64,000 bases of DNA from Trypanosoma brucei. Taxonomy: Eukaryota. The DNA lies in NCBI GenBank assembly GCA_000002445.1, contig CP000066.1, positions 1,376,001-1,440,000 on the forward strand, written 5' to 3'. Below, one piece after another: positions 2,721 through 63,500 of the stretch (position 1 is the first letter of the stretch; the number at the start of each line of letters is the position of its first letter). The notes under the pieces were generated by a model, which worked only from the letters and a program-made list of their open reading frames with translations, was not told where the DNA came from and searched no databases. A program made the translations under genes and the position numbers.

Positions 2721-3130
2721 AAGATATGTATTGTTCCCTTTTCACTTCTCTTGCATCAGGAAAGTCGTTCTAGAATCAATGAGACCACTTCGGTTTCATT
2801 CACTTAGCAGCCACAGAGGCGCGGTTGGAAACCTCTTTGATAGTTTGCAATCATTAAGTTGCTTATACACCACACCCCGACTTCTGTATGTTTGTGGGTG
2901 TGTACACGGAACCACTGCAGCCCTCATTTTCTTGAACCAGTTGAAATACTCTATTTGAAAGCATTCATTTTTCCTGTTTTTGTTTTACTGCTTAGCAGAG
3001 AAAAAAGGGGGAATTCTATAAGAAGGGGTCACGATCGGAAAGTTTTTAAAAGGTGTCTTAACAAAAGTAGCAGATTATCGGGGTGTTGCGGCGGTTAGTC
3101 ATTGAAGAACGGACGCATTTTTCCCCCCCG

Positions 3131-3438
3131 ATGTTGGCAGCAACGGGGTTCCGTCTCCATACCTCAAGCTCATCAAAAATAACGAAACAGTCCAAGGCAG
3201 GGTATACCTCACGCAGCCCGGGAAGGACTTCGTCACGTGTATCACGGATTTAATCTTTTCTTCTTGAATACGCGTCTGGCTTGGAAATACCTCCCGGCAG
3301 CTCAATGCAGGAGTTGCCTTAACTCGGCGGGAGCGGTTACTTCTGGAAAGCGCAACTAAAGATCTTCTTCGACTCGTCCCCTTTAGTTTCTTCATCCTCG
3401 TTCCGTTTGCCGAGCTCCTGCTACCTGTTGCACTGAAG
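3131..3438 (+). pseudogene. LETM1: Disrupted 5' portion of the LETM1 homologue; the reading frame is split across three frames
   Basis: The only upstream ATG (3131, frame 2) sits just after a C7 run and encodes a presequence-like MLAATGFRLHTSSSSKITKQSK. Frame 3 (3183-3290) encodes REGLRHVYHGFNLFFLNTRLAWKYL, which aligns with the LETM1 [10 protein letters not shown] segment. Frame 1 then carries RQLNAGVALTRRERLLLESATKDLLRLVPFSFFILVPFAELLLPVALKMFPDLIPSTFE, which runs into the ORF at 3439. Removing one C from the CCC at 3293-3295 fuses frames 3 and 1 into KYLRQLNAGVALTRRER. Confidence 0.6.
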
Positions 3439-4575
3439 ATGTTTCCGGACCTGATTCCCTCAACATTTGAGAGTGAAAATCAGGGACGCAACAAGGCCTT
3501 TACGACTCTTATGGGAACGGTGCGTGCCCGACGCCGGTTGGCGGAATACCTGTCGTCCACTGCTTTTGTAAGCTTTACGAAAGAACAACAAGAAGTGGTG
3601 CGTTTCTCGGCAATGGGGGAGGCGGTGACCGCGAACCAGATACGTTTAATTGCACCTCATTTTGGTCGGGAAGGGCCGTTTAATGTCTACCAGATCCCCA
3701 ATGGTATTGCAGTAGCTCTGGCAAGGACTGTGGGAGTATACAAAGCATACCATGGTCTTGTTCCTAACAAAATTATGGCTCCTTACATGCGTCGTAAGAT
3801 CTTGCGGCAGTATCATAAAACCCGCGAGGATGACCGTATGCTACGTTTGGAGGGGCTTGACGATTTAACGGATGAGGAGCTGATAAAGGCGAACCTTGTT
3901 CGGGGTATGCGCTGGACAGAGGATGCGGAGACACTACGTATCCAACTTGAATGGTGGATATCTCTAGGACGTGACCCGGATGTCCCTTACAACACCCTTT
4001 TCTGGGTCAAGCCTACCCGATACAGCTTGAAAGAGTCAATGAAACGCTTGCCTGTGGAACAGCGCCGGCAGCTATTGGGCATTCAACATCTTCCCGAGAG
4101 CATTCGTGGAAATCTCGAGACACTCTGCGAAACGGTCGACACAGCTCCATCCATGAGTGAGGGTAAACCTGAGGACGCTGATCAGCTAGTGGAGAAACTT
4201 GCAGAGTTAAATGCTAAAACGAAAATCAGTGATAAGGATATTGCAATTCAGAATATTCAAATATCGCTGGGCGCTTATCTAACGGAACCAAATGTGAAAC
4301 GTATGTTTGAAGACATTCGCAAAAGTAAAACAGTGAACGAATATATAACAGTTACGGATGTCATAGATTTCATTGGAAGTGAAACCCATAATTCTTCCCA
4401 TGTAGTTTCTACTGTGTTTGATGCGTTCGATCAGAGTAGCGGAGTGAAGGCAATTACCGAATCTACACTCATATCTATCGGGGCCCGCTGCAGGGAGGCG
4501 TCAAAGGCACATGTCGACGTATCGTCTCAGTCTTCCCCAGGCAAACAGCCTTCAGAGGTGATTGCAAAAAATTAG
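3439..4575 (+). CDS. LETM1: LETM1-family mitochondrial inner-membrane protein; intact ORF portion covering the LETM1 domain onward
   Basis: MFPDLIPSTFE matches the LETM1 signature LFPNMLPSTFE. GMRWTEDAETLRIQLEWWISL aligns with human [22 protein letters not shown]. The upstream in-frame sequence continues the LETM1 TM/LRLVPF motif. Confidence 0.8.
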   Translation: MFPDLIPSTFESENQGRNKAFTTLMGTVRARRRLAEYLSSTAFVSFTKEQQEVVRFSAMGEAVTANQIRLIAPHFGREGPFNVYQIPNGIAVALARTVGVYKAYHGLVPNKIMAPYMRRKILRQYHKTREDDRMLRLEGLDDLTDEELIKANLVRGMRWTEDAETLRIQLEWWISLGRDPDVPYNTLFWVKPTRYSLKESMKRLPVEQRRQLLGIQHLPESIRGNLETLCETVDTAPSMSEGKPEDADQLVEKLAELNAKTKISDKDIAIQNIQISLGAYLTEPNVKRMFEDIRKSKTVNEYITVTDVIDFIGSETHNSSHVVSTVFDAFDQSSGVKAITESTLISIGARCREASKAHVDVSSQSSPGKQPSEVIAKN

Positions 4576-5716
4576 GTTGTACCGGTGTTTTTTCCCCGTA
4601 TCATCACCAACGTTTACCGACTGTTCGCCATGGAGGAAGCACCATGACTGTAGGTTCATCGAGGGGGGGGGGTAGCAACCCCGAAGAACATATACATTAC
4701 TTCCGCCTTGTGCTCAGGGACATTGAACTACCATTTGCTCCAGTGAACGATGTTTCATGACAAAGACTGGTGCGAAATTGGTATGTATTACGTTTATGTA
4801 TGTGCGGATTAATGTTTTGGCTCCCGTTTTCTCTGTTCAGGGCTGCGGCGTTACTAGCGCGATTAAAGAACGTTGGGTGGGGAGGGGGTATAAGGCATGT
4901 TTACCCTTGTACCCGGGTGTAGCACAAATTTATGCGGCAGCAGGGAAGTATATGAACATAACTGTAGGGGTCCTGCGCGAAGAGCGGGTGACGTGCAATT
5001 ATATCATAGATCTGAAACTTGAATGAAAGCATTCTACTTCGTTTTTAAATTCCCCCTTTCTACAACTTTGAGGAAAGATATACATCAAGTGATCCATGTA
5101 GCCGCACATGAAACCCAGTTCGACTGGCTGTTGTTACCGTGCATTCGATATTGGGAAGAGGACGGCACCCCTTCCCGCTATTTCACCCACGGGTGCGCTG
5201 CGAACGTTAAACGCTTCAACGACGTCGGGTTTCTTTCGACAGTTTGGTGTCGCTGGTAATGGAGTGCAGAGTTTTCCGAAGCAAGCTCAAGAAAGGGCAT
5301 GTTCCCACCCGACTGCTAAATTTCTTTCAGGCAAATATAAGCGGTGGATACACCCGGTGGATTTCGAGTCTTTGAACGAACCCACCCTGTCAATTTGATT
5401 GTGATGAGTTATGTGATATTTTTCTATCATGTTTTGGCGCGTCATAATGACATAGTCACTTCTTTGTGTTTTACCCGAGTCGGAGGCGCCACTTAATACT
5501 ATGTAGGTGAGTTTTTGGTGGGATTCGGCTCAGCAGTTGCACTATTGTGACTCCGTTGATACACAGCGTGTCGAAGGCATGCACCTTATTTCGATAACCA
5601 CATCAATGAAAAGCGTTGTGTTTCATGCGAACTTTGGTGTTTCACACATTCTACTTTACCTCTTTTCATACTGGAGCGGTAGTTGGGATCATGTTTACGA
5701 CGGTATCTTTTTAAAA

Positions 5717-13071: not shown

Positions 13072-16000
13072 ATGTCTATGCACCGTGACTTACTTCGAAT
13101 AAGGCGGCAGACGTCGAACCTTGTCTCGTCACCCTCGCCTCCTTCCTCACGTGCCAGCCCTCGTGCAAGGGTGAGTTCGGCTAGAGGGGAACAACGACAA
13201 GGTGCTAGTGAAGCCGTGCATGTAGCAGTTCGTGTGCGGCCTTTGTCTGTCAATGAGGCGGGACAAGATGTCATCGTTTCGATGGATCCGTCAGCGAAGA
13301 AGATATTCGTGAGGAACCGAGGCGAGGAGCAACAAGAGTTTCCTTTTGAGTTGCCCGTATGGTCTTGCGGTGGAAATGCGCTAAACGGCTCGCCGCCGGT
13401 AAGTCAGGCAGCACTGTACAAAATGGTTGGGCAACCCCTTTTGGACCACGCATTTGAGGGCTTTAACAGCACACTTATGGTATACGGTAGCACAGGCAGC
13501 GGAAAAACTTACACAATGATGGGTGACATGGATGGCGGCTTTCTGGGTGAGGACGAGGATGTGCTCAACGATGGTGAGGAGGGCATTGTCCCACGCCTAT
13601 GCCGTGAGATGTTTCAGAAGATCAGAGATCGCTCGGTCAGCTTGTCTGACGGGGGAACGCTGACGTGGGATGTGCATGCCTCCTATGTGGAGGTTTATTG
13701 TGAGAAGATTAGCGATTTACTGAATAACGGTGCCCCTGTCACTATTCGTGAGGTGATCACGGATAACGAAGCGCACTTTGCGCTCAATGGTGCGCAGCGG
13801 GTTAACGTCCGTAATTCAGCGGAAATACTGCATCTCCTAAAAATTGGTAACAGACACAGGAAAACAGCCTCTACGGCCATGAATGAGCGCAGTAGTCGTA
13901 GTCATGCTATATTTGTTGTGGAGCTCACCGAGATGCTTGTAGTGAGGGGACCCGATGGTGAGTGTGTCGGTGCCCCAGGCAAGTTCCTTACCGTTCGCCT
14001 CGTTGATTTGGCGGGTAGTGAACGCGTTGGGGAAGCGGGCATGTCGGGACAGCTATTCAAGGAGGGTGTTGATATTAACTGCAGCCTCTTCACCCTGGGT
14101 ATGGTAATTGAGGCTCTTTCGGATCCTAGTCGACGCCATATGAGGCCACCATACCGTGACAGTACGTTGACGAAGATTCTAAAGGACGCATTTGGTGGAA
14201 ACAGCAAAACCACGATGATTTGTACCATTGCCCCCACGGAGGCCCAACGTGTGCACACGGTTCAAACACTTCAGTACGGGCTTAAGGCGCGACGAATTGT
14301 GAACAAGCCATGTGCGAAGAGAGGACCGTCAGCTAAAGAGCTTCGTAAGGCCAGTGAGGAGATGCTTAGTTTACGCCAGAAGCGCAGGGAAAGGCAACCA
14401 CAAGGCACTGGCTTGGAGGAATCGTATGCTGATCTAAGGCGTGCTGGCGACGGAGGCTTACATAATGGGGGTGCTTTACGTCATTCTGAGAGCTCGTCGG
14501 AAGGCAAGGAGACTTCTCTTGGCGGCTCCAATTTCGCTACAGATGAGGAGAGGGACCGTTACAGGAGGAAGATGGAAGAGCTGGAAGAAGAAATTGAGCG
14601 TGCGAGGGCGAGATACAGAGAGCAGGGGCGGGAGCTGCAAAACATAAGGAGAGAGAGTGCGGCTGAGGCTGAGGTGCGTTTAAGGGCGTTAGAAGCCCAA
14701 TTCAATGAGAAGGAAAATCATTTGAAGCGGAAAGGTCACGAAATTCAAAGGAAGCACCGTGATGCGGAGAGCCGATTGAAAGAGTTTAAAAATTTTTCGG
14801 AGGAGCGCATTTCTGACCTCCTTCGTGCACAGGGGGAGCTGAAAGATAAGTTACACGAGAAGGAACTTGCAGTCGGGCAGCGTGAGCGGGAGCTGCAGGA
14901 GGCCCAGAGTCGTGCCGAGGAGGAGGTTTCCCGTTTGCATCAGCGCATGATGCAGCAGGAACGAAAATGGCTTGAGCGCCATAAGGCTTTGGAAGCTGAA
15001 ATTTGCGCACAGGAAGACAAAATGAGGGACCGATTGCGTGATGCTATGGAGAGAATGCGTAATGTGGAAGAAGTTGCAGCACGTCGCGAGAGTGAGCTTC
15101 ACCGCAAGTGGTTAGATGCCCAGCAAGCGACCCGAGAGCTTCACCACAAGTTAGCTGAGAGCGAGGCAGAAAAGGCGCGACAAATATCTCAGGATCGCCG
15201 GGAAACAACCAAACGCGAGTCTGAACTTGCCCATAAATTGGAAGAAACTGAGCGCGGCCGAAAGGCCCTCGAACGTGAGGCGGTATCGCTAAAGACTGAA
15301 TTGGATGTGTTGAAGGAAGACTACGAGATGCTCGCTAAAAACAGCAGGGAGGGTTGTGATGCGGAGGCGCGGCTTCTCCCCCTTGAGGAGGAACTAAAGA
15401 GGCGAGAGGAGCGGCTGCAGCAACGCGAGGAACAGGCCCAGGCATCACTCGATGAAGTTCTAAAGAAGCAAGAGGAACTGGACCGCTTACACCTCGCAGT
15501 CATTGCCAAAGCAGATGCTATTGAGAAGGATGCGGTTGCCGCACTTCGGGAAAGGGAGAGTCGCCTTCAGAAGCGTGAAGATGAGCTTAAGAGCTTGGAG
15601 CATGAGTTGGAGGCACGCTCCGCGGTTTTGGATGTGGAGGCCAAGTATAAATCAATGGAGTACGATACGAAGGAGAGTGGGGCAGAGGCTTTAGCTTCCC
15701 GCGAACGCCGCGCCACAGAACTGCTTCAAGATGAACTTCAGGAAGCATTGCAACGTGTTCATCTCGACATGAAACAGAGGGAAGAGAAGTTTGATCGAAT
15801 GGAAGATGATATCAAGCGATGTCGTGAGCAGTTGGAGAATCTCTACAACGAGCGGGATGAGATGCTTAGGCGTGCATCCACATCCTCCGCTGGACGCAGC
15901 TGCGTGTTTGACTCGCCGCTTCCCGTTCCTCCACGGGGTTGCCGAAGATGCAGGTCGGGTACATCGTGGCCGTCCAACTGTAGCACGATGGGGACCGGGG

Positions 16001-17856
16001 AGGAAAATGATGCGTCTCTCAGTGGGCGGCAGTTCTCTCCTAACCAAAGCAGCGCGTCGCAGCAAGAACCGCGCTGCTCAGAGAACGGGGTTGAGGGGGG
16101 GAGGTCGTCTGAACTGCGTCCGATAAGTGCTCTTGCGGGGGAGTCGGTTTGCTTATGGCTCAAGAATATGCTGATCACTATGGAGGAAAGGAGCCGCGGC
16201 TTACTTGAGGATTTGTGCTATCATGAATACAGTGTCCTCGAGCGGATGACGTCCATCGGCTCTCTTTTTTCGTTTGGCGAAAATGCTCCCAACACGAGGA
16301 GCCCTGAGGTGGCCGCCAGGGTGGTTGACCGTACTTCGGTGTCTGCATGTAGTGACCATTTGCGCGGTGGTTTTCGACTTGGATCAATATGTGGTGTCGT
16401 GCCCCATGATGCTCCTTGCGTGCCTAGCCTCATGCATACTGAAGCGGACTGCGGTTTAAGAGATGCAGCATCGGAACATGAACAACTTGCCCAGCGTATA
16501 GTCGCGTTTGAACGGCTGCAGCATCAACGTGAGGTCGAGTTTCAGCAGAAGGATGAGCAAATCAGGGAATACCTAGTTGAAGTGGAGGCGATGGATCGTG
16601 AAAGGATGGCGATGTATCGCTTAAAGGAGGAGGAACACGAGGCTGCGGCTGCACAGTTGCAGATGGCAAAACGTGAGTTTGACCACCGTGTTAATTGCAT
16701 GCAGCAAACCCTTTTTTGCCGCGGCGCGCAGCAACACGCTGAGTCCATAGTCTTGCAGGAGGCCGCTGAACGTGAGAACATTTTTCGGCTATTCAACATT
16801 CAACTTCACAAGATTTTCGCCCATGAGAGAAACATGGCGCACCATACGAACTGTGTGGACTTGTTGCGCCAGAGAGAGGAGGTGATCACGCTTGAGGAGG
16901 CACAACTCCAGAAACGTATAAGTCAGCTAAAGGACGAGGAGGATGAGTGGAAAAGACGTCGTTCCACCGAGGAGACGCAGATACTCACGTACCTATTGGA
17001 GCTACAAAACGAAGATATGCTGCGCAAGCAAGCCATTGGGGAGAAGGGAAGCAGAGAGGACACCGCGAAATACTGCGAAGACGCCGAACTCGGGGTTGCG
17101 GGTTTGTGTAATGTGATGCATCGAGTAAGGGATCACACGCAGAAGTGTGAACTTGCGGTACAAAAGATGGAGAGTGAACTGGAACAGCAGGCAGATGCGG
17201 AGAAGGTCTTGGAGGAACGTGAAGCTGCTGTTGAACGGCGCCGTCGTGAACTTTCCACCAGCATGGAGTCTCGGGAGCGTTCCCTTTTGGACAGGGAAAT
17301 GGAACTGGAGGAGTTGACTCGTCGGCTTAAAGGTGACATACAAAAACGTGAACTTGCGATACAAAAGATGGAGAGTGAACTGGAACAGCAGGCAGATGCG
17401 GAGAAGGTCTTGGAGGAACGTGAAGCTGCTGTTGAACGGCGCCGTCGTGAACTTTCCACCAGCATGGAGTCTCGGGAGCGTTCCCTCTTGGAACAGGAAG
17501 TGGACCTACGGAAACTGTCCACTAAAGCAGGGGATAATTGTCGTAAACGTCCGGGTTCTCGTGTGGCACATAATCAGGAAGGTTCCTACTACGTTGACAT
17601 CAAGAAACTTCTGGAGGTCTGTGGATTTCAACTGCCGGGTGGAAAAGTTGAATTCCCGGACGGCGCTGACACACCGATTGAACTGACCGATAACCTTATC
17701 GACGTTATCGAATCACTACGACGCCAGCTAAAGGTATGGATTCAAAAGTATCGTGTGCTGAAGTCAGATGAGAAACTGGAGTGTGAACGCTGTTTGTGGC
17801 AGAATAACCGTGGTGCCACTGTGTGCCGATGCTGCGGCAATGCTCAACTTGTGTAA
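13072..17856 (+). CDS. Kinesin-like protein (1594 aa): N-terminal motor domain, very long coiled-coil stalk, C-terminal RanBP2-type zinc finger
   Basis: The motor begins VAVRVRPLS. P-loop GSTGSGKTYTM, switch I NERSSRSHAIF and switch II LVDLAGSERV are all present. Charged heptad-like sequence runs from about residue 430 to 1500. C-terminus CERCLWQNNRGATVCRCCG fits C-x2-C-x3-N-x6-C-x2-C (RanBP2 ZnF). Confidence 0.9.
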   Translation: MSMHRDLLRIRRQTSNLVSSPSPPSSRASPRARVSSARGEQRQGASEAVHVAVRVRPLSVNEAGQDVIVSMDPSAKKIFVRNRGEEQQEFPFELPVWSCGGNALNGSPPVSQAALYKMVGQPLLDHAFEGFNSTLMVYGSTGSGKTYTMMGDMDGGFLGEDEDVLNDGEEGIVPRLCREMFQKIRDRSVSLSDGGTLTWDVHASYVEVYCEKISDLLNNGAPVTIREVITDNEAHFALNGAQRVNVRNSAEILHLLKIGNRHRKTASTAMNERSSRSHAIFVVELTEMLVVRGPDGECVGAPGKFLTVRLVDLAGSERVGEAGMSGQLFKEGVDINCSLFTLGMVIEALSDPSRRHMRPPYRDSTLTKILKDAFGGNSKTTMICTIAPTEAQRVHTVQTLQYGLKARRIVNKPCAKRGPSAKELRKASEEMLSLRQKRRERQPQGTGLEESYADLRRAGDGGLHNGGALRHSESSSEGKETSLGGSNFATDEERDRYRRKMEELEEEIERARARYREQGRELQNIRRESAAEAEVRLRALEAQFNEKENHLKRKGHEIQRKHRDAESRLKEFKNFSEERISDLLRAQGELKDKLHEKELAVGQRERELQEAQSRAEEEVSRLHQRMMQQERKWLERHKALEAEICAQEDKMRDRLRDAMERMRNVEEVAARRESELHRKWLDAQQATRELHHKLAESEAEKARQISQDRRETTKRESELAHKLEETERGRKALEREAVSLKTELDVLKEDYEMLAKNSREGCDAEARLLPLEEELKRREERLQQREEQAQASLDEVLKKQEELDRLHLAVIAKADAIEKDAVAALRERESRLQKREDELKSLEHELEARSAVLDVEAKYKSMEYDTKESGAEALASRERRATELLQDELQEALQRVHLDMKQREEKFDRMEDDIKRCREQLENLYNERDEMLRRASTSSAGRSCVFDSPLPVPPRGCRRCRSGTSWPSNCSTMGTGEENDASLSGRQFSPNQSSASQQEPRCSENGVEGGRSSELRPISALAGESVCLWLKNMLITMEERSRGLLEDLCYHEYSVLERMTSIGSLFSFGENAPNTRSPEVAARVVDRTSVSACSDHLRGGFRLGSICGVVPHDAPCVPSLMHTEADCGLRDAASEHEQLAQRIVAFERLQHQREVEFQQKDEQIREYLVEVEAMDRERMAMYRLKEEEHEAAAAQLQMAKREFDHRVNCMQQTLFCRGAQQHAESIVLQEAAERENIFRLFNIQLHKIFAHERNMAHHTNCVDLLRQREEVITLEEAQLQKRISQLKDEEDEWKRRRSTEETQILTYLLELQNEDMLRKQAIGEKGSREDTAKYCEDAELGVAGLCNVMHRVRDHTQKCELAVQKMESELEQQADAEKVLEEREAAVERRRRELSTSMESRERSLLDREMELEELTRRLKGDIQKRELAIQKMESELEQQADAEKVLEEREAAVERRRRELSTSMESRERSLLEQEVDLRKLSTKAGDNCRKRPGSRVAHNQEGSYYVDIKKLLEVCGFQLPGGKVEFPDGADTPIELTDNLIDVIESLRRQLKVWIQKYRVLKSDEKLECERCLWQNNRGATVCRCCGNAQLV
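17147..17488 (+). repeat. Near-identical tandem duplication inside the kinesin stalk: two copies of about 141 nt with a 201-nt period
   Basis: 17147-17286 and 17348-17487 are almost base-for-base identical, with one visible difference (gcggta versus gcgata). They encode CELAVQKMESELEQQADAEKVLEEREAAVERRRRELSTSMESRERSLL twice, 67 aa apart. Confidence 0.9.
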
Positions 17857-23309: not shown

Positions 23310-24134
23310 ATGACAGTAATGGACGTGGATGCCACCGCCATCCCGGATATGATCGAGGCGCAGCTGACTCTTAGCTACAGCCGCCTCACACAACTAATTC
23401 GTCTGATTGTTGACCAGGGCAACGGCCATGATATGGACATTGGGAAGATTATGAATCGTCTAGATGCGCTTGCAAAGGAAAACGCAGAGCTTCGGAAGCG
23501 TGTGGACGAGCTCACAGAGACGACGATGCGCTGTGGAGGCGTCAACGAGGAGGTAGCAGTGTTGAAACGGGAAGTCGCCATTGTGCAGGAGCTCTGTACC
23601 GAGAATACGAAGAGGCTCACCAGCAGTGAAGGCATAAATGAGAGACGATTCGTTAAGTTGGAGGAAGCGGTAAGTACAGTATCGGACACAGGGACAACTG
23701 AAACCCAACGCTTGGACGGATGTATCACCGAGCTTCGATCGGAGAACTTGGAGATGAAGAAGGATGTTGGGTGCTTGAACGACTTCGTAGCCCTTTGGGA
23801 CGGTCATGTAGAGAAGATTCGAGCGCTGACCACACGTGACTCAGAGGGTAATTTGCAGCACGCAGCACATGAGAGGGCGAGATACCTTCACTCCCTTCCC
23901 CCATTCACTAAACTGTTTGAGGAGTTGGAGGTGATGCGGCAGCTGAATCGACATCAGACTACGGACTCACTCGCCGCAAAGGGTGTCGTAGGTGTGTTGA
24001 GGCGCTCAAGCGTCGGCGATATTGCGGGGAATACGGATCCCGCACCCAAATCACCATGCGTGGCGACCCCCGCTGCCGAAACAGAGTCGTGGAGAGAATC
24101 AATGCCACCATCGCTCAGTTGGACAAACGGCTAA
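23310..24134 (+). CDS. Coiled-coil hypothetical protein, 5' part; frame ends shortly after a C5 run
   Basis: Heptad-like sequence (LDALAKENAELRKRVDELTET, VAVLKREVAIVQELCTENTKRL). The frame terminates 60 nt after the C5 run at 24067-24071. Confidence 0.6.
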   Translation: MTVMDVDATAIPDMIEAQLTLSYSRLTQLIRLIVDQGNGHDMDIGKIMNRLDALAKENAELRKRVDELTETTMRCGGVNEEVAVLKREVAIVQELCTENTKRLTSSEGINERRFVKLEEAVSTVSDTGTTETQRLDGCITELRSENLEMKKDVGCLNDFVALWDGHVEKIRALTTRDSEGNLQHAAHERARYLHSLPPFTKLFEELEVMRQLNRHQTTDSLAAKGVVGVLRRSSVGDIAGNTDPAPKSPCVATPAAETESWRESMPPSLSWTNG

Positions 24135-24961
24135 AGGCCCTGGAGACTGAGCGAGCGGAACGAGGTAATGAGGCGCATGGCGCGGCTGCATACAGTTCAC
24201 AGTTCTTCATGGAAAAGGACTCACGCAACGCTGTGCCTCCATTGGTGGAGGGTTTCATTCCCTCGAGGGCTGTTCTAACCGACATCGAAGATCGACTGTG
24301 TTACCTTGAAGCTGCACTCAAAACCGGTAATACCTTGCCATCCTCCCGACGTGTACCACGGTTGCCTGAGAGGGATCTTCCACCAATCGTGGGAGCACCA
24401 CACCCCCCCGGTGCAGCACCATTGCAGGGTGAAGCTGGGGGAGAACCTTCAACTTCCACAAGCAAAGAACGTCAGGCATCCGAGCGGGCTGCAAGCAACG
24501 GCACATCGAATGGGATACCTCCACCTATTCAAGGACATCGAGGGTGCGACGTCAGCAATCCCTCTGCAGGAAACTCATCAAGTGCTGGCGTAAGTCAAGG
24601 ACGGCACGCGGTGGATGACGGCAGTGTGTTGCGACAACGCGTCGACAAACTTGAAGAGAGGGCGTCTGTGCTGGAGAAAAAGAAAGCTGATCGGCGGGAG
24701 GTGCAGCAACTGGAGGAATTTGTAGAGGAATTAGCCAGGCGTTCGTTGGGGCCACTCCAAACTGGTCCAGTGCCTTCCAACATGCAAGAAAATGCGCAAT
24801 TGGGTTACTCAGATGACGTTCTCGGGATGGGGAGAGGCTCGCGAAAAGTGGGCACTGCTCCACTCATGCGCTCCGTATTTGTTGTTGGCATGGGTACACA
24901 GTTGAACGATTCGACGGGCAGCAAAACTTCCGCCACAGTCGCCAACCCCAGGCAACTTTAG
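24056..24961 (+). CDS. Coiled-coil hypothetical protein, 3' part; probably the continuation of the 23310 gene after a single-base frame change
   Basis: This frame is open from 23999. It starts immediately with coiled-coil sequence RVVERINATIAQLDKRLKALETERAER and carries further coiled coil (LRQRVDKLEERASVLEKKKADRREVQQLEEFVEEL). It overlaps the upstream ORF by 79 nt in frame +2. Confidence 0.6.
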   Translation: MRGDPRCRNRVVERINATIAQLDKRLKALETERAERGNEAHGAAAYSSQFFMEKDSRNAVPPLVEGFIPSRAVLTDIEDRLCYLEAALKTGNTLPSSRRVPRLPERDLPPIVGAPHPPGAAPLQGEAGGEPSTSTSKERQASERAASNGTSNGIPPPIQGHRGCDVSNPSAGNSSSAGVSQGRHAVDDGSVLRQRVDKLEERASVLEKKKADRREVQQLEEFVEELARRSLGPLQTGPVPSNMQENAQLGYSDDVLGMGRGSRKVGTAPLMRSVFVVGMGTQLNDSTGSKTSATVANPRQL

Positions 24962-43144: not shown

Positions 43145-44188
43145 ATGAGCGACTTCCCCAAACTGATGCGCTTGAGAGTGGATGATGAGAACATGGAGAA
43201 GATTCATTCCGTAGCGCGTAAAGGCCAAACAGATGAAGTGAAACGGTTTGTAGAACAAGGCATTGATCCTTCCATCCAAAATAAGTTTGGTTGCACTGCC
43301 TTACATCTTGCGTGTAAGTTTGGTCAAGTTGAGACTGCGAAGTATTTATCAACCTTATGTGATTCTCATATATCATGGCACGGCCAGAAGCCACTTCACC
43401 TCGCGGTGCTTTCCAAAAAGGAGGATCTTGTGGAAGCCCTCGTTGCAGGGGCACGGGATCGCGGTCGTAATGTGGAGGCCATGTTAAACGAACATGATGA
43501 ATTTCAGGTAACGGAAATCGGGGAACATGATATCCACTCGGATGGGCAAACGGCGTTACACTGGTGTGTGGCCCTCGGAAGTGAGTATTTGCCCATGTTA
43601 AAGTTATTACTGAAGCTGGGTGCCTCACCGACCGCCAAAAGCAAGGAAAGTATGACGAGCCTAATGTATGCGATCATCACTAAGAATGAGGAGGCAATGG
43701 AATGTATGTTAGATGGGGCTAAAAGTGGACAACTCCGACTGGATTACCAAGACAAAGATGGGAGGACGCATTTGCATCACGCCATCTTGAGCAACCGTGA
43801 GGACTATGCCATGCGCTTTATTGAGTTGGGCCACGGTTTAGATCAGGAAGATGATAACCACGAGCCACCGCTGTTTCATGCACTCCGCGCTGCGATGCCT
43901 AAACTGCTGGCGTATCTGTTGGAGAACGTGGACACGTTTTCCGTTCAGCAAGCTCCCTTTCATAACGGCTCCACTGTCATGCCCGAGCGCATTCAATGGT
44001 TGCCTTTTGCAACTAATGAGCAGGAGCAGAATGAGTGCATAGCGTTGTTTCAAAAGCGTCTATCTGAAGTCTGCGCACCACAAGAAGCTGTTGTGAAGAA
44101 AAAGAAGGCCAATATCAAGAAGATGCACTTGGCGCCGTCTGCGCCTGTGCGCAAGCGCAGTGTCGGACGCCCTAAAGCCTCCAAATAG
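43145..44188 (+). CDS. Ankyrin-repeat protein (347 aa)
   Basis: Repeated ank units (GCTALHLACKFGQVETAKYL, GQKPLHLAVLSKKEDLVEALV, GQTALHWCVALGSEYLPMLKLLLKLGASP, GRTHLHHAILSNREDYAMRFIELG). Basic C-terminus. Confidence 0.8.
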   Translation: MSDFPKLMRLRVDDENMEKIHSVARKGQTDEVKRFVEQGIDPSIQNKFGCTALHLACKFGQVETAKYLSTLCDSHISWHGQKPLHLAVLSKKEDLVEALVAGARDRGRNVEAMLNEHDEFQVTEIGEHDIHSDGQTALHWCVALGSEYLPMLKLLLKLGASPTAKSKESMTSLMYAIITKNEEAMECMLDGAKSGQLRLDYQDKDGRTHLHHAILSNREDYAMRFIELGHGLDQEDDNHEPPLFHALRAAMPKLLAYLLENVDTFSVQQAPFHNGSTVMPERIQWLPFATNEQEQNECIALFQKRLSEVCAPQEAVVKKKKANIKKMHLAPSAPVRKRSVGRPKASK

Positions 44189-49965: not shown

Positions 49966-52900
49966 GCATCTCTGACGCTCATTTCTCCCTTTTGAATTGT
50001 GGAGCGAGGGAGATGGTTGCGGCGATGTGCAAACGGTGAATGCACAAGAGAGAAAAAAGCGAAAAAATAATAATAATTCTAAAGTGTCTGTAGACATGAC
50101 TAAGGAGAGAAAACCTCTCCCTCTACATTTCACCTTATTGTATTCCATTTTATTTCTTTACTTAACAAAAAAAGAAAATAACTGTAAGTGACTTAACTAT
50201 ATTCCCTTCCCTTTAAACCTGTTTTCATCCCCTTTCATTCCCTTTCCTTATTTTTCTCGTTATTTTTAAAAAAAAAGCTGTGTGTGCTGCTGGGTGTGTT
50301 TTTATACATTAATTTATTTTCATGTTGCAATATTTCCTCCCTCTCATCTCTTTTCTGCATTCCACGGATTCACGTGCGTTGGGGTAATGAAAGAAGAAAA
50401 TCTCAATTTCTGATGGTGGAGTCAAATCCTCCACTTTTTTATGTTTTATGGTATGTTTTATGGTATGTTTTATTGTTTTTTTTAATTGTTTTATTATTTA
50501 TTATTTTTTTTCCCCCATTTCAAAATTCGTTCGACCCACATTTGTGTTGATGCTTCGTTTCATTGAACCCTTTTCTCCCTACTCTCACTCTCACTCTCAC
50601 ACGCACACGCACACGCACATGCACGATTATACGAAAATATGTGAAAGTTATATATTTATTTATGAATGTGCTTATTTTTTGGTTAATGCAACTTCTCAAC
50701 CCCCCTTTTCCCCGTTATTATTTCACATGTACCGTTTTTTAAGCGATGCGACGCACTTACACTCTCTGCATGATGAAACGGAGTTTCGCGACACCCCATT
50801 TTAAAATTTTTATTGTTTATCTTTTTTCTTTTTTTTGCTCCTATAAATGTAGTTTTTACACAATATCACATAATATAATTTAATATGACTTCACATTATT
50901 TAATACAATCTCATTATTTTTCTTTTTTTTTTTGTGTGTGTGTGTATGTGCGGTTAAACGACCCTCTATGAGGCAGTTGCTTGTTGTCAATATCGTTATT
51001 TGTATTTTAAAACGAAAACAATAAGGGAACTGCAAAGGAACAGACAAAAAGGAAAAAAATAAAATAAACAACAAGAGGACACTCACAGAATAAACCGAAT
51101 AAAATCCAGCATTCAATAATAAAACAATGACAACATCAACAGAAAACAGAACACAGAAGGAAACACGAACAGAAAATAGGAGGAAAACAGAACCCGTTGA
51201 CAAAAAATAAAAACAGAAGAAAAAAAACACAGAGAGAAAAAGAATTAGTCAATATACCTCAGTATAAAATGAAATATTAACGGAAAGAATATGTTATGAT
51301 TTTGCCCGTTTGTTCTTTCTTCGATGCCGTTGCAATAATGGTAAAAATGATAATAATAATAATTAAAAAAAACGTTTTCCCCTCCGATATTTTTATTTTA
51401 TATCCTTCCTCTTTTTTTTTTTTGCTTTGCATTTTGGTTTGCACATAACTTTGTGCAGTTCACGTTCACACGATGGCGCTGCTGCTCACAGGCACTCAAC
51501 GCATCCACTTCAAGAAGTGAGAAGATAAAAAAAGAAAATAAAAATGAAGCTATCAAATCTGCTCCACCCATACAATCCACGACTATTCTTACATACTTAC
51601 ATTTTTTTCTTTTAAATAAATAAATAAATATATATATATATATTCTTTTCTTGTTGTTGTTTTTGTTCACATAAATATCAAATAACAAATAATAAATACA
51701 TTCGTTTTACTATTTATCCAATCACTTCCGATTTTCACAAATGACTTTGTTTCGCTTCGATACCCTTCAAAACACCGCTGCGTGGGACGGATTCAAAAGA
51801 ATAACTTGCAGACGACTAGCGGCAATGGGAGGAGGAAAAAAAAAAGACAAAAAGAACTGACGCACACGAGTTAGAAGTTGATAACTGTTGTGAGAAGGAA
51901 GAAGAAGAAGCAAAGGGGCGGAAAAAAAAAAGGAGACAAACAGAGCAACAACAACAACAACAGCTAATTTTCTCATTATTATTATTATTGCTATTATCAC
52001 TATTGTTATTTTTGTTTTGCCGGTCACTAGAAGAATATACACCCGTATTGAAATAAATAAAATAAGTAAATTTTAATTTGTTTTGTAACTATTATTTCCC
52101 ATATTTTAAGCGACCAAATATTTACATCAAGGCAGAACACTTTGGATGATATGATCTCCAAAAGAAGGAAGATAATGCAATTGTATATGTATATGCATAT
52201 GTATGAGTGTGTGGGTTTTATAAAAGAAAGCACGTGACACAATTAATGGCAGAAAAGAGGGAGAAAATGCATAAAACGAAAGTCGCTCCAATGAACAATA
52301 ATGAAATATAGGACACAAAATATTAAAGATGGGGGATCAAATCGAAGGGCAGAGGGGCGGGGAGGGAGGGCGGAGGAAAGAAAAAAAAAAGATAATAGCC
52401 TGATAAAAAGAAAATACGAATATATATATATATATATAACTATTTATATTTTATATGTTTTTTTTTCTTTTTATAACGTTATCGCGTGATGACATGAATT
52501 ATTGGGAGGGTGTGGGTTTTTATCGTTTCCTTATTTTCTTTTAATTTCAGAAAAAAGAAGTTGTTTTTGTTTTTTTATTTTTTAATTTTACTTTTTAAAT
52601 TATCAGGTATGTTCTCATTACCTCTCCTGCGATGTGACTACACGCCTTTATGTTTCACTGAATCCAAATTCTTTCGTGTCTTTACTTCCATTTTTTTTTC
52701 TCTTATCCCCCCATATATTTACTTTAATTTTTATTATTTATCGGAACATGACTTAAGCGATTACCTGACTTGGATATCAGTCAACTAAGCACGCACACAC
52801 ACACACACACACATAATCAAGTGAATTAGAAAGAAGAACAAAAAAAATCAAAGAAAGCAAATTTAAGGATACGATAAGGGCAGATCAAAGTGAAGAAGAA

Positions 52901-53043
52901 AAAAAACAACAATAACAACAACAATAATAATAATAACAGCAAAAAAATAAAAATAAAAAGGAAAGAGTATAAATTATTCACTCAAATTGCCCACTGTTTT
53001 TTTTTAATTTTGCTTACTTGTTACTACTTGAACGCAATCACAT
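49966..53043. other. 3 kb AT-rich low-complexity spacer with alternating strand composition
   Basis: About 50200-50900 is T/pyrimidine-rich on the + strand, 51000-52400 is A/purine-rich (long runs such as aaaacagaacacagaaggaaacacgaacagaaaatagg), and 52400-53000 is T-rich again. It contains (CA)n at 52791-52814, (TA)n at 51633-51646 and 52424-52440, and (cactct)n/(cacg)n at 50581-50625. No ORF longer than 120 aa. Confidence 0.7.
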
Positions 53044-61804: not shown

Positions 61805-62303
61805 GGGTCAATCACTCACGTGAGTCTGAGTGCACTGAGCTGCAGAGACATTTCCCCAGAAGTGACCCTGAAACCTGTTGGACACAATTACTGCCGGTGT
61901 CTGAGTGCGGTGTGGGCATACTTGGGTTCTGTATCTGATCCTTGTTGTTTTCTCCCTTCTTATCTTTGTCTTTTTGTTTCCCTAGTTTGCTCTGCATTCG
62001 AGATGAGTACTGTATATTCTTTAATTGATTCCCTCCAAGCCCTCCTCTTTTCTTGACTATATTGCGTTGTTGAATGTAGATGTGCATGGTTGTATTTGGT
62101 TATGATACCCCGTTGCTTGCGGGCGCGTTGCACGAGATTGCATGGAGGGCGCGTGTGAGGCTTCTTTTCCTCCAGAGTTCCTTCATTTTCCTCCTGTTTC
62201 AATCCTCATCTGCATTTGTTTTCTTTTCTCTCTTTTTTTTCTTCGCAAACTACAAATACATTTGGTTATGTTCCTCTCTATGTTTTTTTTTAAATCTGTC
62301 ATC

Positions 62304-62337
62304 AATAATAATAATAATAATTATTATTATTATTATT
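62304..62337. repeat. (AAT)n immediately followed by (ATT)n; a self-complementary trinucleotide microsatellite
   Basis: aataataataataataattattattattattatt. It can form a perfect hairpin, and it translates as N5Y5 in the spurious 5' ORF extension. Confidence 0.9.
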
Positions 62338-62363
62338 GCGTTACGTATAGCGCTTACAGAAAC

Positions 62364-63500
62364 ATGTCGCCCCACAACAAGCGCTCCATGGAACAAAAGA
62401 AGAGGAATAAAGACCGTATCGCCGCCTACCACGGGCAAAGGGTCAACTCGCATGGAGGTCACCGAAATTCGCATTCGCATTCGGGCCACCGGCACCGCGG
62501 CGGGCATACTGTTAGGAGAAACCGCATTTACGACCCGGGAAATCCGTTTGATAGGCAACTCTTCGACTATTTGATTGTCGTGGACGTGGAAGCGACATGC
62601 GAGTATAAAAATGACAATTATCCCCACGAAATTATTGAATTACCCGGTGTATTAGTTGACGTGAGGCGTGGCGTTGTAGACAAGGAACGTTCGTTTCGTT
62701 CATATGTGCGACCGCAACGTAATCCTCTTCTCACCCCTTTCTGTAAAGCACTCACAGGAATAACGCAGGAGGATGTTGACAGCGCACCAACCCTCCAGGA
62801 AGTTGTGAAGTTATTTGAGCAGTGGTACACCGAAACGATTCCACGCGGTGCAAAAGTTGCCTTGGCTACGGACGGGCCTTGGGATTTGAAAAACTTTGTG
62901 CACGAGCACTCCATCTTGCGTGATCATATTAGTTTCCCCACCATCTTTTACGAATATCTGGACATCCGCACGACCTTTGCACACTTCTTCAATCGTGGTA
63001 CGCCTTTAAAACTAGTTCCCATGCTTGAACGGTTGCAGCTAACATTTGAGGGACGTGAGCACTGCGGTTTTGACGATGCGGTGAATATTGCCCGCCTCGC
63101 GGTGTCTATGATGCGTGCGGGATGTGTGTTCAACTACCTCGTGGCAATCCCATTAACTGATGAATTTCACTACGACATGCCAAATACTGCGTTGTACCGC
63201 CGAAAGGAGGGGAGCGGTTATCTTGACCCTGATGTTGTTGATGACATTGCGAAGAAATGCTTTGGAGTAGATTACTTTACATTCGGTGAGAGACATATGG
63301 CAGAGGTGATGGAACACCGGCGCCGCTACCCTCAAAACTTCAACCAACGCAACCAACTGTGGAAACAAACGAAAATGAAGAATCGCGGCCGCAGGTTGTA
63401 CGGCGTTCGCTTCAGAATGGTAGCCGTTGCCGTCTTGGCTCTGCTTGGATTAGTTTTGTTTTTGTTGCTCATTTACCGGAAAGTGATGACGCTGCTCTAA
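62364..63500 (+). CDS. DEDDh 3'-5' exonuclease (ERI-1/3'hExo/RNase T-like) with a His/Arg-rich N-terminus and a C-terminal transmembrane helix
   Basis: Exo I motif LIVVDVEATCE. Exo II region KVALATDGPWDLKNFV. Exo III motif with the H-x4-D signature (HCGFDDAVNIARL), which marks the DEDDh subfamily. N-terminal HGGHRNSHSHSGHRHRGGH tract. C-terminal MVAVAVLALLGLVLFLLLIY followed by RKVMTLL and the stop. Start taken at MSPHNKRS; the track start at 62142 lies in pyrimidine/low-complexity sequence. Confidence 0.8.
   Translation: MSPHNKRSMEQKKRNKDRIAAYHGQRVNSHGGHRNSHSHSGHRHRGGHTVRRNRIYDPGNPFDRQLFDYLIVVDVEATCEYKNDNYPHEIIELPGVLVDVRRGVVDKERSFRSYVRPQRNPLLTPFCKALTGITQEDVDSAPTLQEVVKLFEQWYTETIPRGAKVALATDGPWDLKNFVHEHSILRDHISFPTIFYEYLDIRTTFAHFFNRGTPLKLVPMLERLQLTFEGREHCGFDDAVNIARLAVSMMRAGCVFNYLVAIPLTDEFHYDMPNTALYRRKEGSGYLDPDVVDDIAKKCFGVDYFTFGERHMAEVMEHRRRYPQNFNQRNQLWKQTKMKNRGRRLYGVRFRMVAVAVLALLGLVLFLLLIYRKVMTLL

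What the first reader, a model, noticed from the sequence alone, without database searches (positions are those of the whole stretch)
3099..3440. LETM1 homologue with its 5' end split over three reading frames; one break is a single extra C in a CCC run
Identification of LETM1 downstream is unambiguous (LRLVPFSFFILVPFAELLLPVALKMFPDLIPSTFE). The conserved segment just upstream is readable only by stitching frames. Frame 3 gives REGLRHVYHGFNLFFLNTRLAWKYL, which aligns with human [21 protein letters not shown]. Frame 1 then gives RQLNAGVALTRRER, which aligns with RILNGHSLTRRER. Deleting one C from ctcccgg at 3291-3297 restores KYLRQLNAGVALTRRER exactly. Frame 3 has no ATG, and the only candidate start (3131, frame 2, just after a C7 run) reads as a presequence-like MLAATGFRLHTSSSSKITKQSK. 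That implies a second frame change between 3131 and about 3235. Either this strain carries an LETM1 pseudogene, which would be striking for a conserved mitochondrial K+/H+ exchange factor, or the assembly has homopolymer indel errors at C/G runs.
Basis: partly seen in the sequence, partly recalled or inferred. Interest (0 to 1): 0.6.

Follow-up and report, generated by a model that had tools for sequence, protein, structure and literature searches.

The report
Sequence errors break reference LETM1 gene
The mitochondrial LETM1 gene in this Trypanosoma brucei TREU927 reference sequence is broken by three single-base miscounts within 87 bases, which are almost certainly errors in the 2005 deposited sequence and not a real pseudogene.

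Summary
The window is T. brucei brucei TREU927 chromosome 3, because its ORFs match XP_844082–XP_844103 exactly. The gene at 3131–4575 is TbLetm1 (Tb927.3.4920).

The frame breaks are real in the sequence, but there are three, not two:
- a missing T next to 3205 (TATTAC→TATAC);
- a missing A next to 3211 (CTCAAC→CTCAC);
- an extra C at 3290/3291 (TACTCC→TACCTCC).

None lies in the CCC or C7 run. The correct repair reads KYSRQL, not KYLRQL.

Reverting the three edits gives a 481-aa ORF. That ORF is identical to the protein encoded in six independent Trypanozoon assemblies or transcript contigs.

Against the closely related T. equiperdum OVI, the gene has no substitutions at all. Three of five short-context indels falling within 87 bp has a chance of about 1e-4.

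A second gene (23310–24961) is broken by the same kind of miscount (TT→T). The deposited record gives a protein accession to every neighbouring gene except these two.

Verdict: local base-count errors in a Sanger-era reference (about 0.85). A real null allele on one homologue is not excluded (about 0.08).

Interest is low. The practical point is that truncated 377/378-aa models starting at M104 are annotated in other genomes whose DNA has the upstream 103 codons intact.

The parts
3019..3130 (+). 5' UTR of the LETM1 mRNA.
   Evidence: The transcript contigs L002-L004 begin at window 3019-3028. L002 and L003 also end in a poly(A) stretch that is absent from the genome. No ATG occurs between 3019 and 3131 (sequence). 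The T/C tract differs among strains.
3131..3205 (+). CDS segment A, frame 2, codons 1-25 (MLAATGFRLHTSSSSKITKQSKAGY). It looks like a presequence: 5 K/R and no D/E in the first 31 residues.
   Evidence: It is 25/25 identical to P0121.
3205..3212 (+). Two missing bases. One T is missing next to 3205 (TATTAC->TATAC) and one A next to 3211 (CTCAAC->CTCAC). Only codon 27 (3208-3210) is complete between them.
   Evidence: DNA alignment with seven other Trypanozoon sequences, all of which carry the extra T and A.
3213..3290 (+). CDS segment C, frame 0, codons 29-54 (AAREGLRHVYHGFNLFFLNTRLAWKY). This is the conserved pre-transmembrane block.
3290..3291 (+). One extra C (TACTCC->TACCTCC).
   Evidence: All seven comparison sequences have a single C here. 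Removing one C gives KYSRQL, as in all trypanosomatid orthologues.
3292..4575 (+). CDS segment D, frame 1, codons 55-481 plus the stop codon. It contains the transmembrane helix (about 3367-3438, residues 80-103) and the LETM1_RBD domain (about 3319-4008).
   Evidence: Pfam hit over residues 64-293. The hydropathy maximum falls at residues 80-105. The repaired translation is identical to P0121.
3439..4575 (+). The longest intact ORF left in the window (378 aa). It starts at M104, immediately after the transmembrane helix.
   Evidence: The same truncated model is annotated in IVM-t1 (RHW73371.1) and DAL972 (CBH10209.1), even though their upstream DNA is intact.
23310..24961 (+). A second gene in the window broken by the same class of defect. 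One T is missing next to 24089 (GTCGTTGG->GTCGTGG), which splits a 550-aa ORF into overlapping 274-aa and 301-aa ORFs.
   Evidence: The 550-aa protein is intact in OVI, IVM-t1 and DAL972.

Best explanation
The locus is the normal, functional, single-copy LETM1/Mdm38 orthologue of T. brucei (TbLetm1, Tb927.3.4920). This is an inner-mitochondrial-membrane protein needed for K+/H+ exchange and mitochondrial volume control. In this deposited TREU927 chromosome 3 sequence its first 55 codons carry three single-base count errors within 87 bases (TT read as T, AA read as A, C read as CC). These are most likely base-calling or consensus errors in a locally poor stretch of the 2005 Sanger BAC-based assembly. 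The real gene reads through as one 481-codon ORF: a presequence, a conserved block, a single transmembrane helix and the matrix-facing ribosome-binding domain.

Shown here: the positions of the indels; the exact restoration of the orthologous protein; the absence of these indels in all other sequences; the clustering; the second gene with the same defect; and the lack of a deposited protein for either gene.

Inferred: that the errors arose in sequencing or consensus building and are not present in the parasite.
For: 1. The window is TREU927 chromosome 3. Its ORFs are exact matches to XP_844082/083/084/085/087/088/089/090/092/096/103, on a record of 1,653,225 bp.
2. Inserting the T and the A and removing one C gives a 481-aa ORF identical to P0121.
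3. That 481-aa ORF is intact and identical at protein level in OVI (L001), four Logan contigs (L002-L005) and IVM-t1 (L006). L002 and L003 are polyadenylated transcripts. DAL972 (L007) has an intact 5' end.
4. Against OVI, the LETM1 CDS has 0 substitutions and 3 indels, while the window-wide rate is 29 SNPs in 45 kb. Three of five short-context indels falling within 87 bp has a simulated chance of about 1e-4.
5. All three changes are one-versus-two counts of a repeated base. The same class of change (TT->T at 24089) breaks a second gene that is conserved and intact elsewhere; one inserted T restores identity to the OVI protein.
6. Five such indels in 45 kb is about 1 per 10 kb. From general knowledge, that is the accepted error ceiling for finished sequence of that era.
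7. GenBank, RefSeq and UniProt accessions run consecutively over the neighbouring genes and skip exactly these two.
8. Literature. Depleting TbLetm1 impairs growth and swells the mitochondrion (PMC6358941). TbLetm1 is detected as a protein by mass spectrometry (bioRxiv 10.1101/2022.12.21.521360). Sanger-era kinetoplastid references carried many frameshift errors: 98 gene models in L. infantum were repaired by iCORN (PMC3245030). A wrongly split TREU927 gene has been documented (PMC8445201). The TREU927 sequence was last updated in 2005 (PMC6742220).
Against: No TREU927 reads or independent TREU927 assembly could be examined, so the indels cannot be proved absent from the strain. T. brucei is diploid and the reference was built from BAC clones of one homologue. 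Real allele-specific premature stops do exist in T. brucei Lister 427 (PMC8445201), so the gene being essential does not exclude a null allele on one homologue. The sites show no unusual single-strand structure that would explain a gel compression.
Confidence: 0.85

Rival explanations
1. A real heterozygous null allele. The sequenced chromosome 3 homologue of TREU927 genuinely carries the three indels, and the parasite lives on the intact allele of the other homologue.
For: The organism is diploid and the reference derives from BACs of one haplotype. Allele-specific frameshifts and premature stops, tolerated without nonsense-mediated decay, are documented in Lister 427 (PMC8445201). No TREU927 read data were available to exclude this.
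Against: It needs three independent indels within 87 bp (chance about 1e-4) with no substitution anywhere in the 1,445-nt gene relative to OVI. All three changes are run-count changes typical of base calling. A second, unrelated gene in the same window shows the same defect.
Confidence: 0.08
2. A clone artefact. The mutations arose in the BAC or shotgun subclone in E. coli, not in base calling. The deposited sequence would then be correct for the clone but not for the parasite.
For: This fits the same data as the main explanation: the indels are unique to this record and the gene is intact everywhere else.
Against: Replication errors in a clone are rare. They would not be expected to cluster three within 87 bp, nor to recur as the same one-versus-two miscount 21 kb away. 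Sequence alone cannot separate this from a base-calling error.
Confidence: 0.05
3. A true homozygous pseudogene, or a gene expressed by recoding (programmed ribosomal frameshifting or RNA editing).
For: Only the bare fact that the deposited frame is broken.
Against: LETM1 depletion impairs growth and swells the mitochondrion in T. brucei (PMC6358941; from my own recollection of Hashimi 2013, it is essential in both life stages). No orthologue shares the shifts. There is no stable local structure, with z about 0 on both strands. Three shifts in different directions would be needed. Trypanosome U-insertion/deletion editing acts on mitochondrial transcripts and could not add an A or remove a C (general knowledge). 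The 378-aa remnant ORF lacks the presequence and the transmembrane helix.
Confidence: 0.01

Closest known systems
TbLetm1 (Tb927.3.4920), the T. brucei LETM1/Mdm38 orthologue (Hashimi et al. 2013, cited in PMC6027440 and PMC6358941)
   Same: It is this very locus. It lies on chromosome 3 between the signal peptide peptidase gene and the 208-aa gene. The gene order and spacing are consistent with Tb927.3.4920, and KU70 and RPL4 lie downstream. The repaired product is identical to the 481-aa Trypanozoon protein.
   Different: The deposited reference DNA cannot encode that protein because of the three single-base indels.
Human LETM1/LETM2 and yeast Mdm38 (PDB 3SKQ)
   Same: It shares the Pfam LETM1_RBD domain (E=2.3e-43). 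The YHG...LTRRE...RLVPF..F..VPF.E.LLPV.LK.FP block and the single transmembrane helix align. There is a weak direct match to the Mdm38 ribosome-binding-domain structure (E=9e-4).
   Different: The N-terminal extension is much shorter: 25-30 residues precede the conserved block, against more than 100 in animals and fungi. Pfam detects no EF-hand. Identity to opisthokont proteins is about 30-35%.
Documented reference-sequence frameshift artefacts in kinetoplastid genomes
   Same: They follow the same pattern: a conserved gene is broken or split in a Sanger-era reference but is intact in related assemblies. Examples are Tb927.2.5860/5870, wrongly split in TREU927 (PMC8445201), and 98 L. infantum gene models repaired by iCORN (PMC3245030).
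   Different: I found no published mention of this particular gene being affected.

Membership tests
LETM1/Mdm38 family | LETM1-like ribosome-binding domain (Pfam PF07766) | tested here: met
   E=2.3e-43 and 148.8 bits against a cut-off of 25.3, over residues 64-293 of the stitched protein.
LETM1/Mdm38 family | A single conserved transmembrane helix (RLVPF..F..VPF.E.LLPV), preceded by the conserved YHG...LTRRE block | tested here: met
   The hydropathy maximum is at residues 80-105. The block aligns with kinetoplastid, fungal and marsupial orthologues. In the window it can be read only after the three indels are repaired.
LETM1/Mdm38 family | N-terminal mitochondrial targeting sequence | tested here: inconclusive
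   The first 31 residues have 5 K/R and no D/E, which is compatible with a presequence. No dedicated predictor was run and no import data were available.
LETM1/Mdm38 family | Role in K+/H+ exchange and mitochondrial volume | not testable with these tools
   Literature only: PMC6027440 and PMC6358941, both citing Hashimi 2013.
Genuine (unitary) pseudogene | Disabling mutations present in the organism's DNA and confirmed independently | not testable with these tools
   No TREU927 reads or second TREU927 assembly were reachable. The frameshifted ORF products are absent from the protein collection, apart from an annotation on IVM-t1, whose DNA is intact.
Genuine (unitary) pseudogene | Signs of relaxed constraint, meaning substitutions that accompany the indels | tested here: not met
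   There are 0 substitutions against OVI across the CDS. The repaired protein is 481/481 identical to the orthologue, and the only differences among strains are synonymous.
Programmed ribosomal frameshift / recoding site | The shift is conserved in orthologues and has a stimulatory structure | tested here: not met
   No other sequence has the shifts. Folding z-scores are -0.5 and 0.0.

The most novel reading that the evidence does not exclude
The genome strain TREU927 really carries a triple-indel null allele of the essential LETM1 gene on one chromosome 3 homologue and lives on a single functional copy. That would be a natural hemizygous state for a gene whose hemizygosity in humans is linked to Wolf-Hirschhorn syndrome features.
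Probability: 0.07. Interest if true: 0.35.

Novelty: not a real feature. Interest (0 to 1): 0.1.

Why it matters
There is no new biology here. The gene is the already characterised TbLetm1, and the breaks are best explained as errors in the reference sequence.

The practical value is curatorial.
- The most used T. brucei reference cannot encode the first 103 residues of an essential mitochondrial protein, which include the presequence and the transmembrane helix.
- The deposited record gives the gene no protein.
- Models starting at M104 (377/378 aa) are annotated in T. b. gambiense DAL972 and T. b. equiperdum IVM-t1, although their DNA has the upstream 103 codons intact. This looks like a truncated model being propagated.

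Anyone who designs N-terminal tags, predicts targeting signals or searches mass spectra with such a model would be misled. The same applies to the 550-aa gene at 23310-24961.

Tried and rejected
Deleting a C from the CCC run at 3293-3295 restores the frame but gives KYLRQL. Every orthologue and the DNA alignment show KYSRQL, so the extra C is at 3290/3291.
- **C7 run as a frameshift site.** It lies in the 5' UTR and is only a T/C polymorphism among strains.
- **Long-read assembly noise as the cause.** I rejected this once the window was identified as the Sanger-era TREU927 record. By contrast, IVM-t1 (which I recall, from outside these tool results, to be a PacBio assembly) does show scattered 1-base deletions in intergenic DNA.
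- **Gel compression or a frameshift-stimulating structure.** Folding 3185-3305 and 24060-24120 on both strands gave z-scores between -0.5 and 0.
- **Independent copies of the frameshifted version.** The 40-aa N-terminal fragment and the 274-aa and 301-aa fragments are not in the 15-billion-protein collection. The 378-aa product occurs once, as the IVM-t1 annotation on intact DNA. The collection seems to hold no TREU927-derived runs, so this negative result is weak.
- **Hashimi 2013.** The paper could not be read; it is not held under its PMC id or its DOI.
- **TrypTag.** Its supplements held no entry for Tb927.3.4920, and no paper links Letm1 and TrypTag.
- **Rfam.** A scan of the whole window found nothing at gathering thresholds.
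- **A paralogous LETM1 copy.** None appeared. All Trypanozoon hits fall in one cluster at this syntenic locus.

Full report
**What is in the sequence**

- The ATG at 3131 (frame 2) opens MLAATGFRLHTSSSSKITKQSKAGY and then runs into a stop after 40 codons.
- Frame 0 carries AAREGLRHVYHGFNLFFLNTRLAWKY.
- Frame 1 carries RQLNAGVALTRRER...LRLVPFSFFILVPFAELLLPVALKMFPDL and continues to the stop at 4575.

The longest intact ORF is 3439-4575 (378 aa). A stitched translation hits Pfam LETM1_RBD (PF07766) at E=2.3e-43. It is 74-84% identical to LETM1 proteins of T. congolense, T. vivax, T. theileri, T. grayi and T. cruzi (73% to T. conorhini). The identification as LETM1 is secure.

**Where the breaks really are**

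The 90%-identity cluster that holds this gene contains a full-length 481-aa protein, P0121 (T. equiperdum OVI, SCU68733.1). I fetched the DNA of the same locus from seven other sources:
- OVI (L001);
- four Logan contigs (L002-L005);
- T. b. equiperdum IVM-t1 (L006);
- T. b. gambiense DAL972 (L007).

The alignment and pairwise difference lists show that the window alone differs at three positions.
- One T is missing next to 3205 (TATTAC→TATAC).
- One A is missing next to 3211 (CTCAAC→CTCAC).
- There is one extra C at 3290/3291 (TACTCC→TACCTCC).

The reading therefore goes frame 2 (codons 1-25), one complete codon in frame 1, frame 0 (codons 29-54), then frame 1 (codon 55 onward). Reverting the three edits yields a 481-aa ORF identical to P0121.

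That repair restores the frame but gives KYLRQL. All trypanosomatid orthologues read AWKYSRQL. The C7 run at 3123-3129 lies in the 5' UTR and merely varies as a T/C tract among strains.

**What the gene is**

The transcript contigs L002-L004 start at window 3019-3028, and L002 and L003 also end in a poly(A) stretch that is absent from the genome. The mRNA therefore has a 5' UTR of about 110 nt, and 3131 is its first AUG.

The N-terminal 31 residues are basic and lack acidic residues. The hydropathy maximum is at residues 80-105, LRLVPFSFFILVPFAELLLPVALKMF. The conserved block before and through this helix aligns from Neobodo to fungi and a marsupial. This matches the LETM1 architecture described in PMC6358941: a targeting signal, an intermembrane-space segment, a single transmembrane helix and a matrix domain.

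The 378-aa remnant ORF begins at M104, right after the helix. It would lack both the targeting signal and the membrane anchor.

The literature names this gene TbLetm1, Tb927.3.4920, and describes it as a K+/H+ exchange factor (PMC6027440). Knocking it down reduces growth and swells the mitochondrion (PMC6358941). It has been detected by mass spectrometry as a partner of TbMba1.

**Which genome this is**

Exact-sequence look-ups of window ORFs return T. brucei brucei TREU927 accessions on a 1,653,225-bp record. These are XP_844082 (IPPT), 083 (signal peptide peptidase), 084, 085, 087, 088, 089, 090, 092, 096 and 103. Several are unique to TREU927.

The GenBank (AAZ10523-AAZ10531), RefSeq and UniProt (Q582P5-Q582N7) numbers run consecutively along the genes of the window. 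They skip exactly two genes: LETM1 and the gene at 23310-24961. So the deposited record gives no protein for either. The depositors evidently saw the broken frames.

**Real or artefact**

Several observations point the same way.
1. The 481-aa ORF is intact and identical at protein level in OVI, IVM-t1 and four Logan contigs (two polyadenylated). DAL972 has an intact 5' end.
2. The window is very close to OVI, with 29 SNPs in about 45 kb. The LETM1 CDS has no substitution at all but has three indels. A gene that had been dead long enough to collect three indels should also carry substitutions.
3. Across the 45 kb comparable with OVI there are five 1-base indels outside long homopolymers or microsatellites: 3205, 3211, 3290, 24089 and 44506. 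Three of the five falling within 87 bp has a simulated chance of about 1e-4. Clustering of this kind is typical of a locally poor stretch of reads.
4. All three are one-versus-two miscounts of a repeated base.
5. The same class of change (TT→T next to 24089) splits a 550-aa conserved gene into overlapping 274-aa and 301-aa ORFs. Inserting one T restores a protein identical to that of OVI. The gene is 550 aa in IVM-t1 and DAL972 and 551 aa in T. congolense.
6. Five such differences in 45 kb is about 1 per 10 kb. From general knowledge, that is the tolerated error rate of finished Sanger sequence.
7. The literature documents such errors. A TREU927 gene was wrongly split (PMC8445201). Ninety-eight frameshifted L. 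infantum models were repaired by iCORN (PMC3245030). TREU927 is listed as a sequence last updated in 2005 (PMC6742220).

**What cannot be excluded**

I could not reach TREU927 reads. T. brucei is diploid, the reference was built from BAC clones, and genuine allele-specific premature stops exist in Lister 427. A real null allele on the sequenced homologue therefore remains possible at roughly 0.08. A mutation arising in the clone is a minor variant of the artefact explanation.

Recoding is rejected. No orthologue shares the shifts. There is no local structure. Three shifts of different sign would be needed. Kinetoplastid U-editing acts on mitochondrial transcripts only (general knowledge).

**Side observations**

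DAL972 has its own TT→T deletion inside LETM1, at window-equivalent 3758/3759. This explains its RefSeq label 'LOW QUALITY PROTEIN'.

The DAL972 and IVM-t1 annotations both start LETM1 at M104 (377 and 378 aa). Yet the IVM-t1 DNA carries the whole 481-codon ORF, and the DAL972 DNA carries the intact first 103 codons. I infer, but cannot verify, that a truncated model was transferred from the broken TREU927 reference.

**Verdict**

The biological reading as a pseudogene is not supported. The most likely explanation, at about 0.85, is three local base-count errors in the 2005 reference. Interest is low, and the value is a curation note for Tb927.3.4920 and for the neighbouring 550-aa gene.

Noticed in passing
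window 23310-24961 (indel next to 24089): A conserved 550-aa hypothetical protein gene is split into overlapping 274-aa and 301-aa ORFs by one missing T (GTCGTTGG->GTCGTGG). Inserting the T restores a protein identical to the OVI one. The gene is intact in IVM-t1 and DAL972 and has no protein accession in the TREU927 record.
   Followed up: yes
L007 (DAL972), equivalent to window 3758-3759: The T. b. gambiense DAL972 reference has its own TT->T deletion inside LETM1. Its 377-aa RefSeq model is flagged 'LOW QUALITY PROTEIN' and does not translate from the DNA as given.
   Followed up: partly
L006 4692-6137 and L007 4692 onward (equivalent to window 3131-4575): IVM-t1 and DAL972 annotate LETM1 from M104 (378 and 377 aa), although their DNA encodes the upstream 103 codons in frame. 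This looks like a truncated model transferred from the TREU927 reference.
   Followed up: partly
window 3118-3129: The T/C tract just upstream of the LETM1 start codon varies among assemblies: T5C7 in the window, T4C8 in OVI, T7C5 in DAL972 and the Logan contigs, and T5C6 in IVM-t1.
   Followed up: partly
window 4663-4672: A G run in the LETM1 3' UTR differs in length among assemblies: G10 in the window, G11 in OVI and G9 in the others. It could be a polymorphism or a miscount.
   Followed up: no
L005 1-4845 joined to window 3084 onward: The Logan contig from ERR7929164 joins a dynein heavy chain gene directly to the LETM1 5' UTR. It is probably a chimeric transcript assembly. The gene caller gave it a 445-aa LETM1 although the full 481-aa ORF is present.
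   Followed up: partly
window 44506: Another one-versus-two base difference from OVI (TT->T). It lies between the genes ending at 44188 and starting at about 45224, so it has no effect on any frame.
   Followed up: no
window 13072-17856 and 62142-63500, compared with other assemblies: Other assemblies have their own truncated models of genes that are intact here. The IVM-t1 kinesin is 855 aa against 1594 aa, and the OVI exonuclease is 378 aa against 452 aa.
   Followed up: no
window 49966-53043: About 3 kb of low-complexity, T-rich sequence with microsatellites has no ORF of 200 aa or more. It lies between the 538-aa gene and a 198-aa thioredoxin-like gene. No Rfam family reached the gathering threshold anywhere in the window.
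   Followed up: partly
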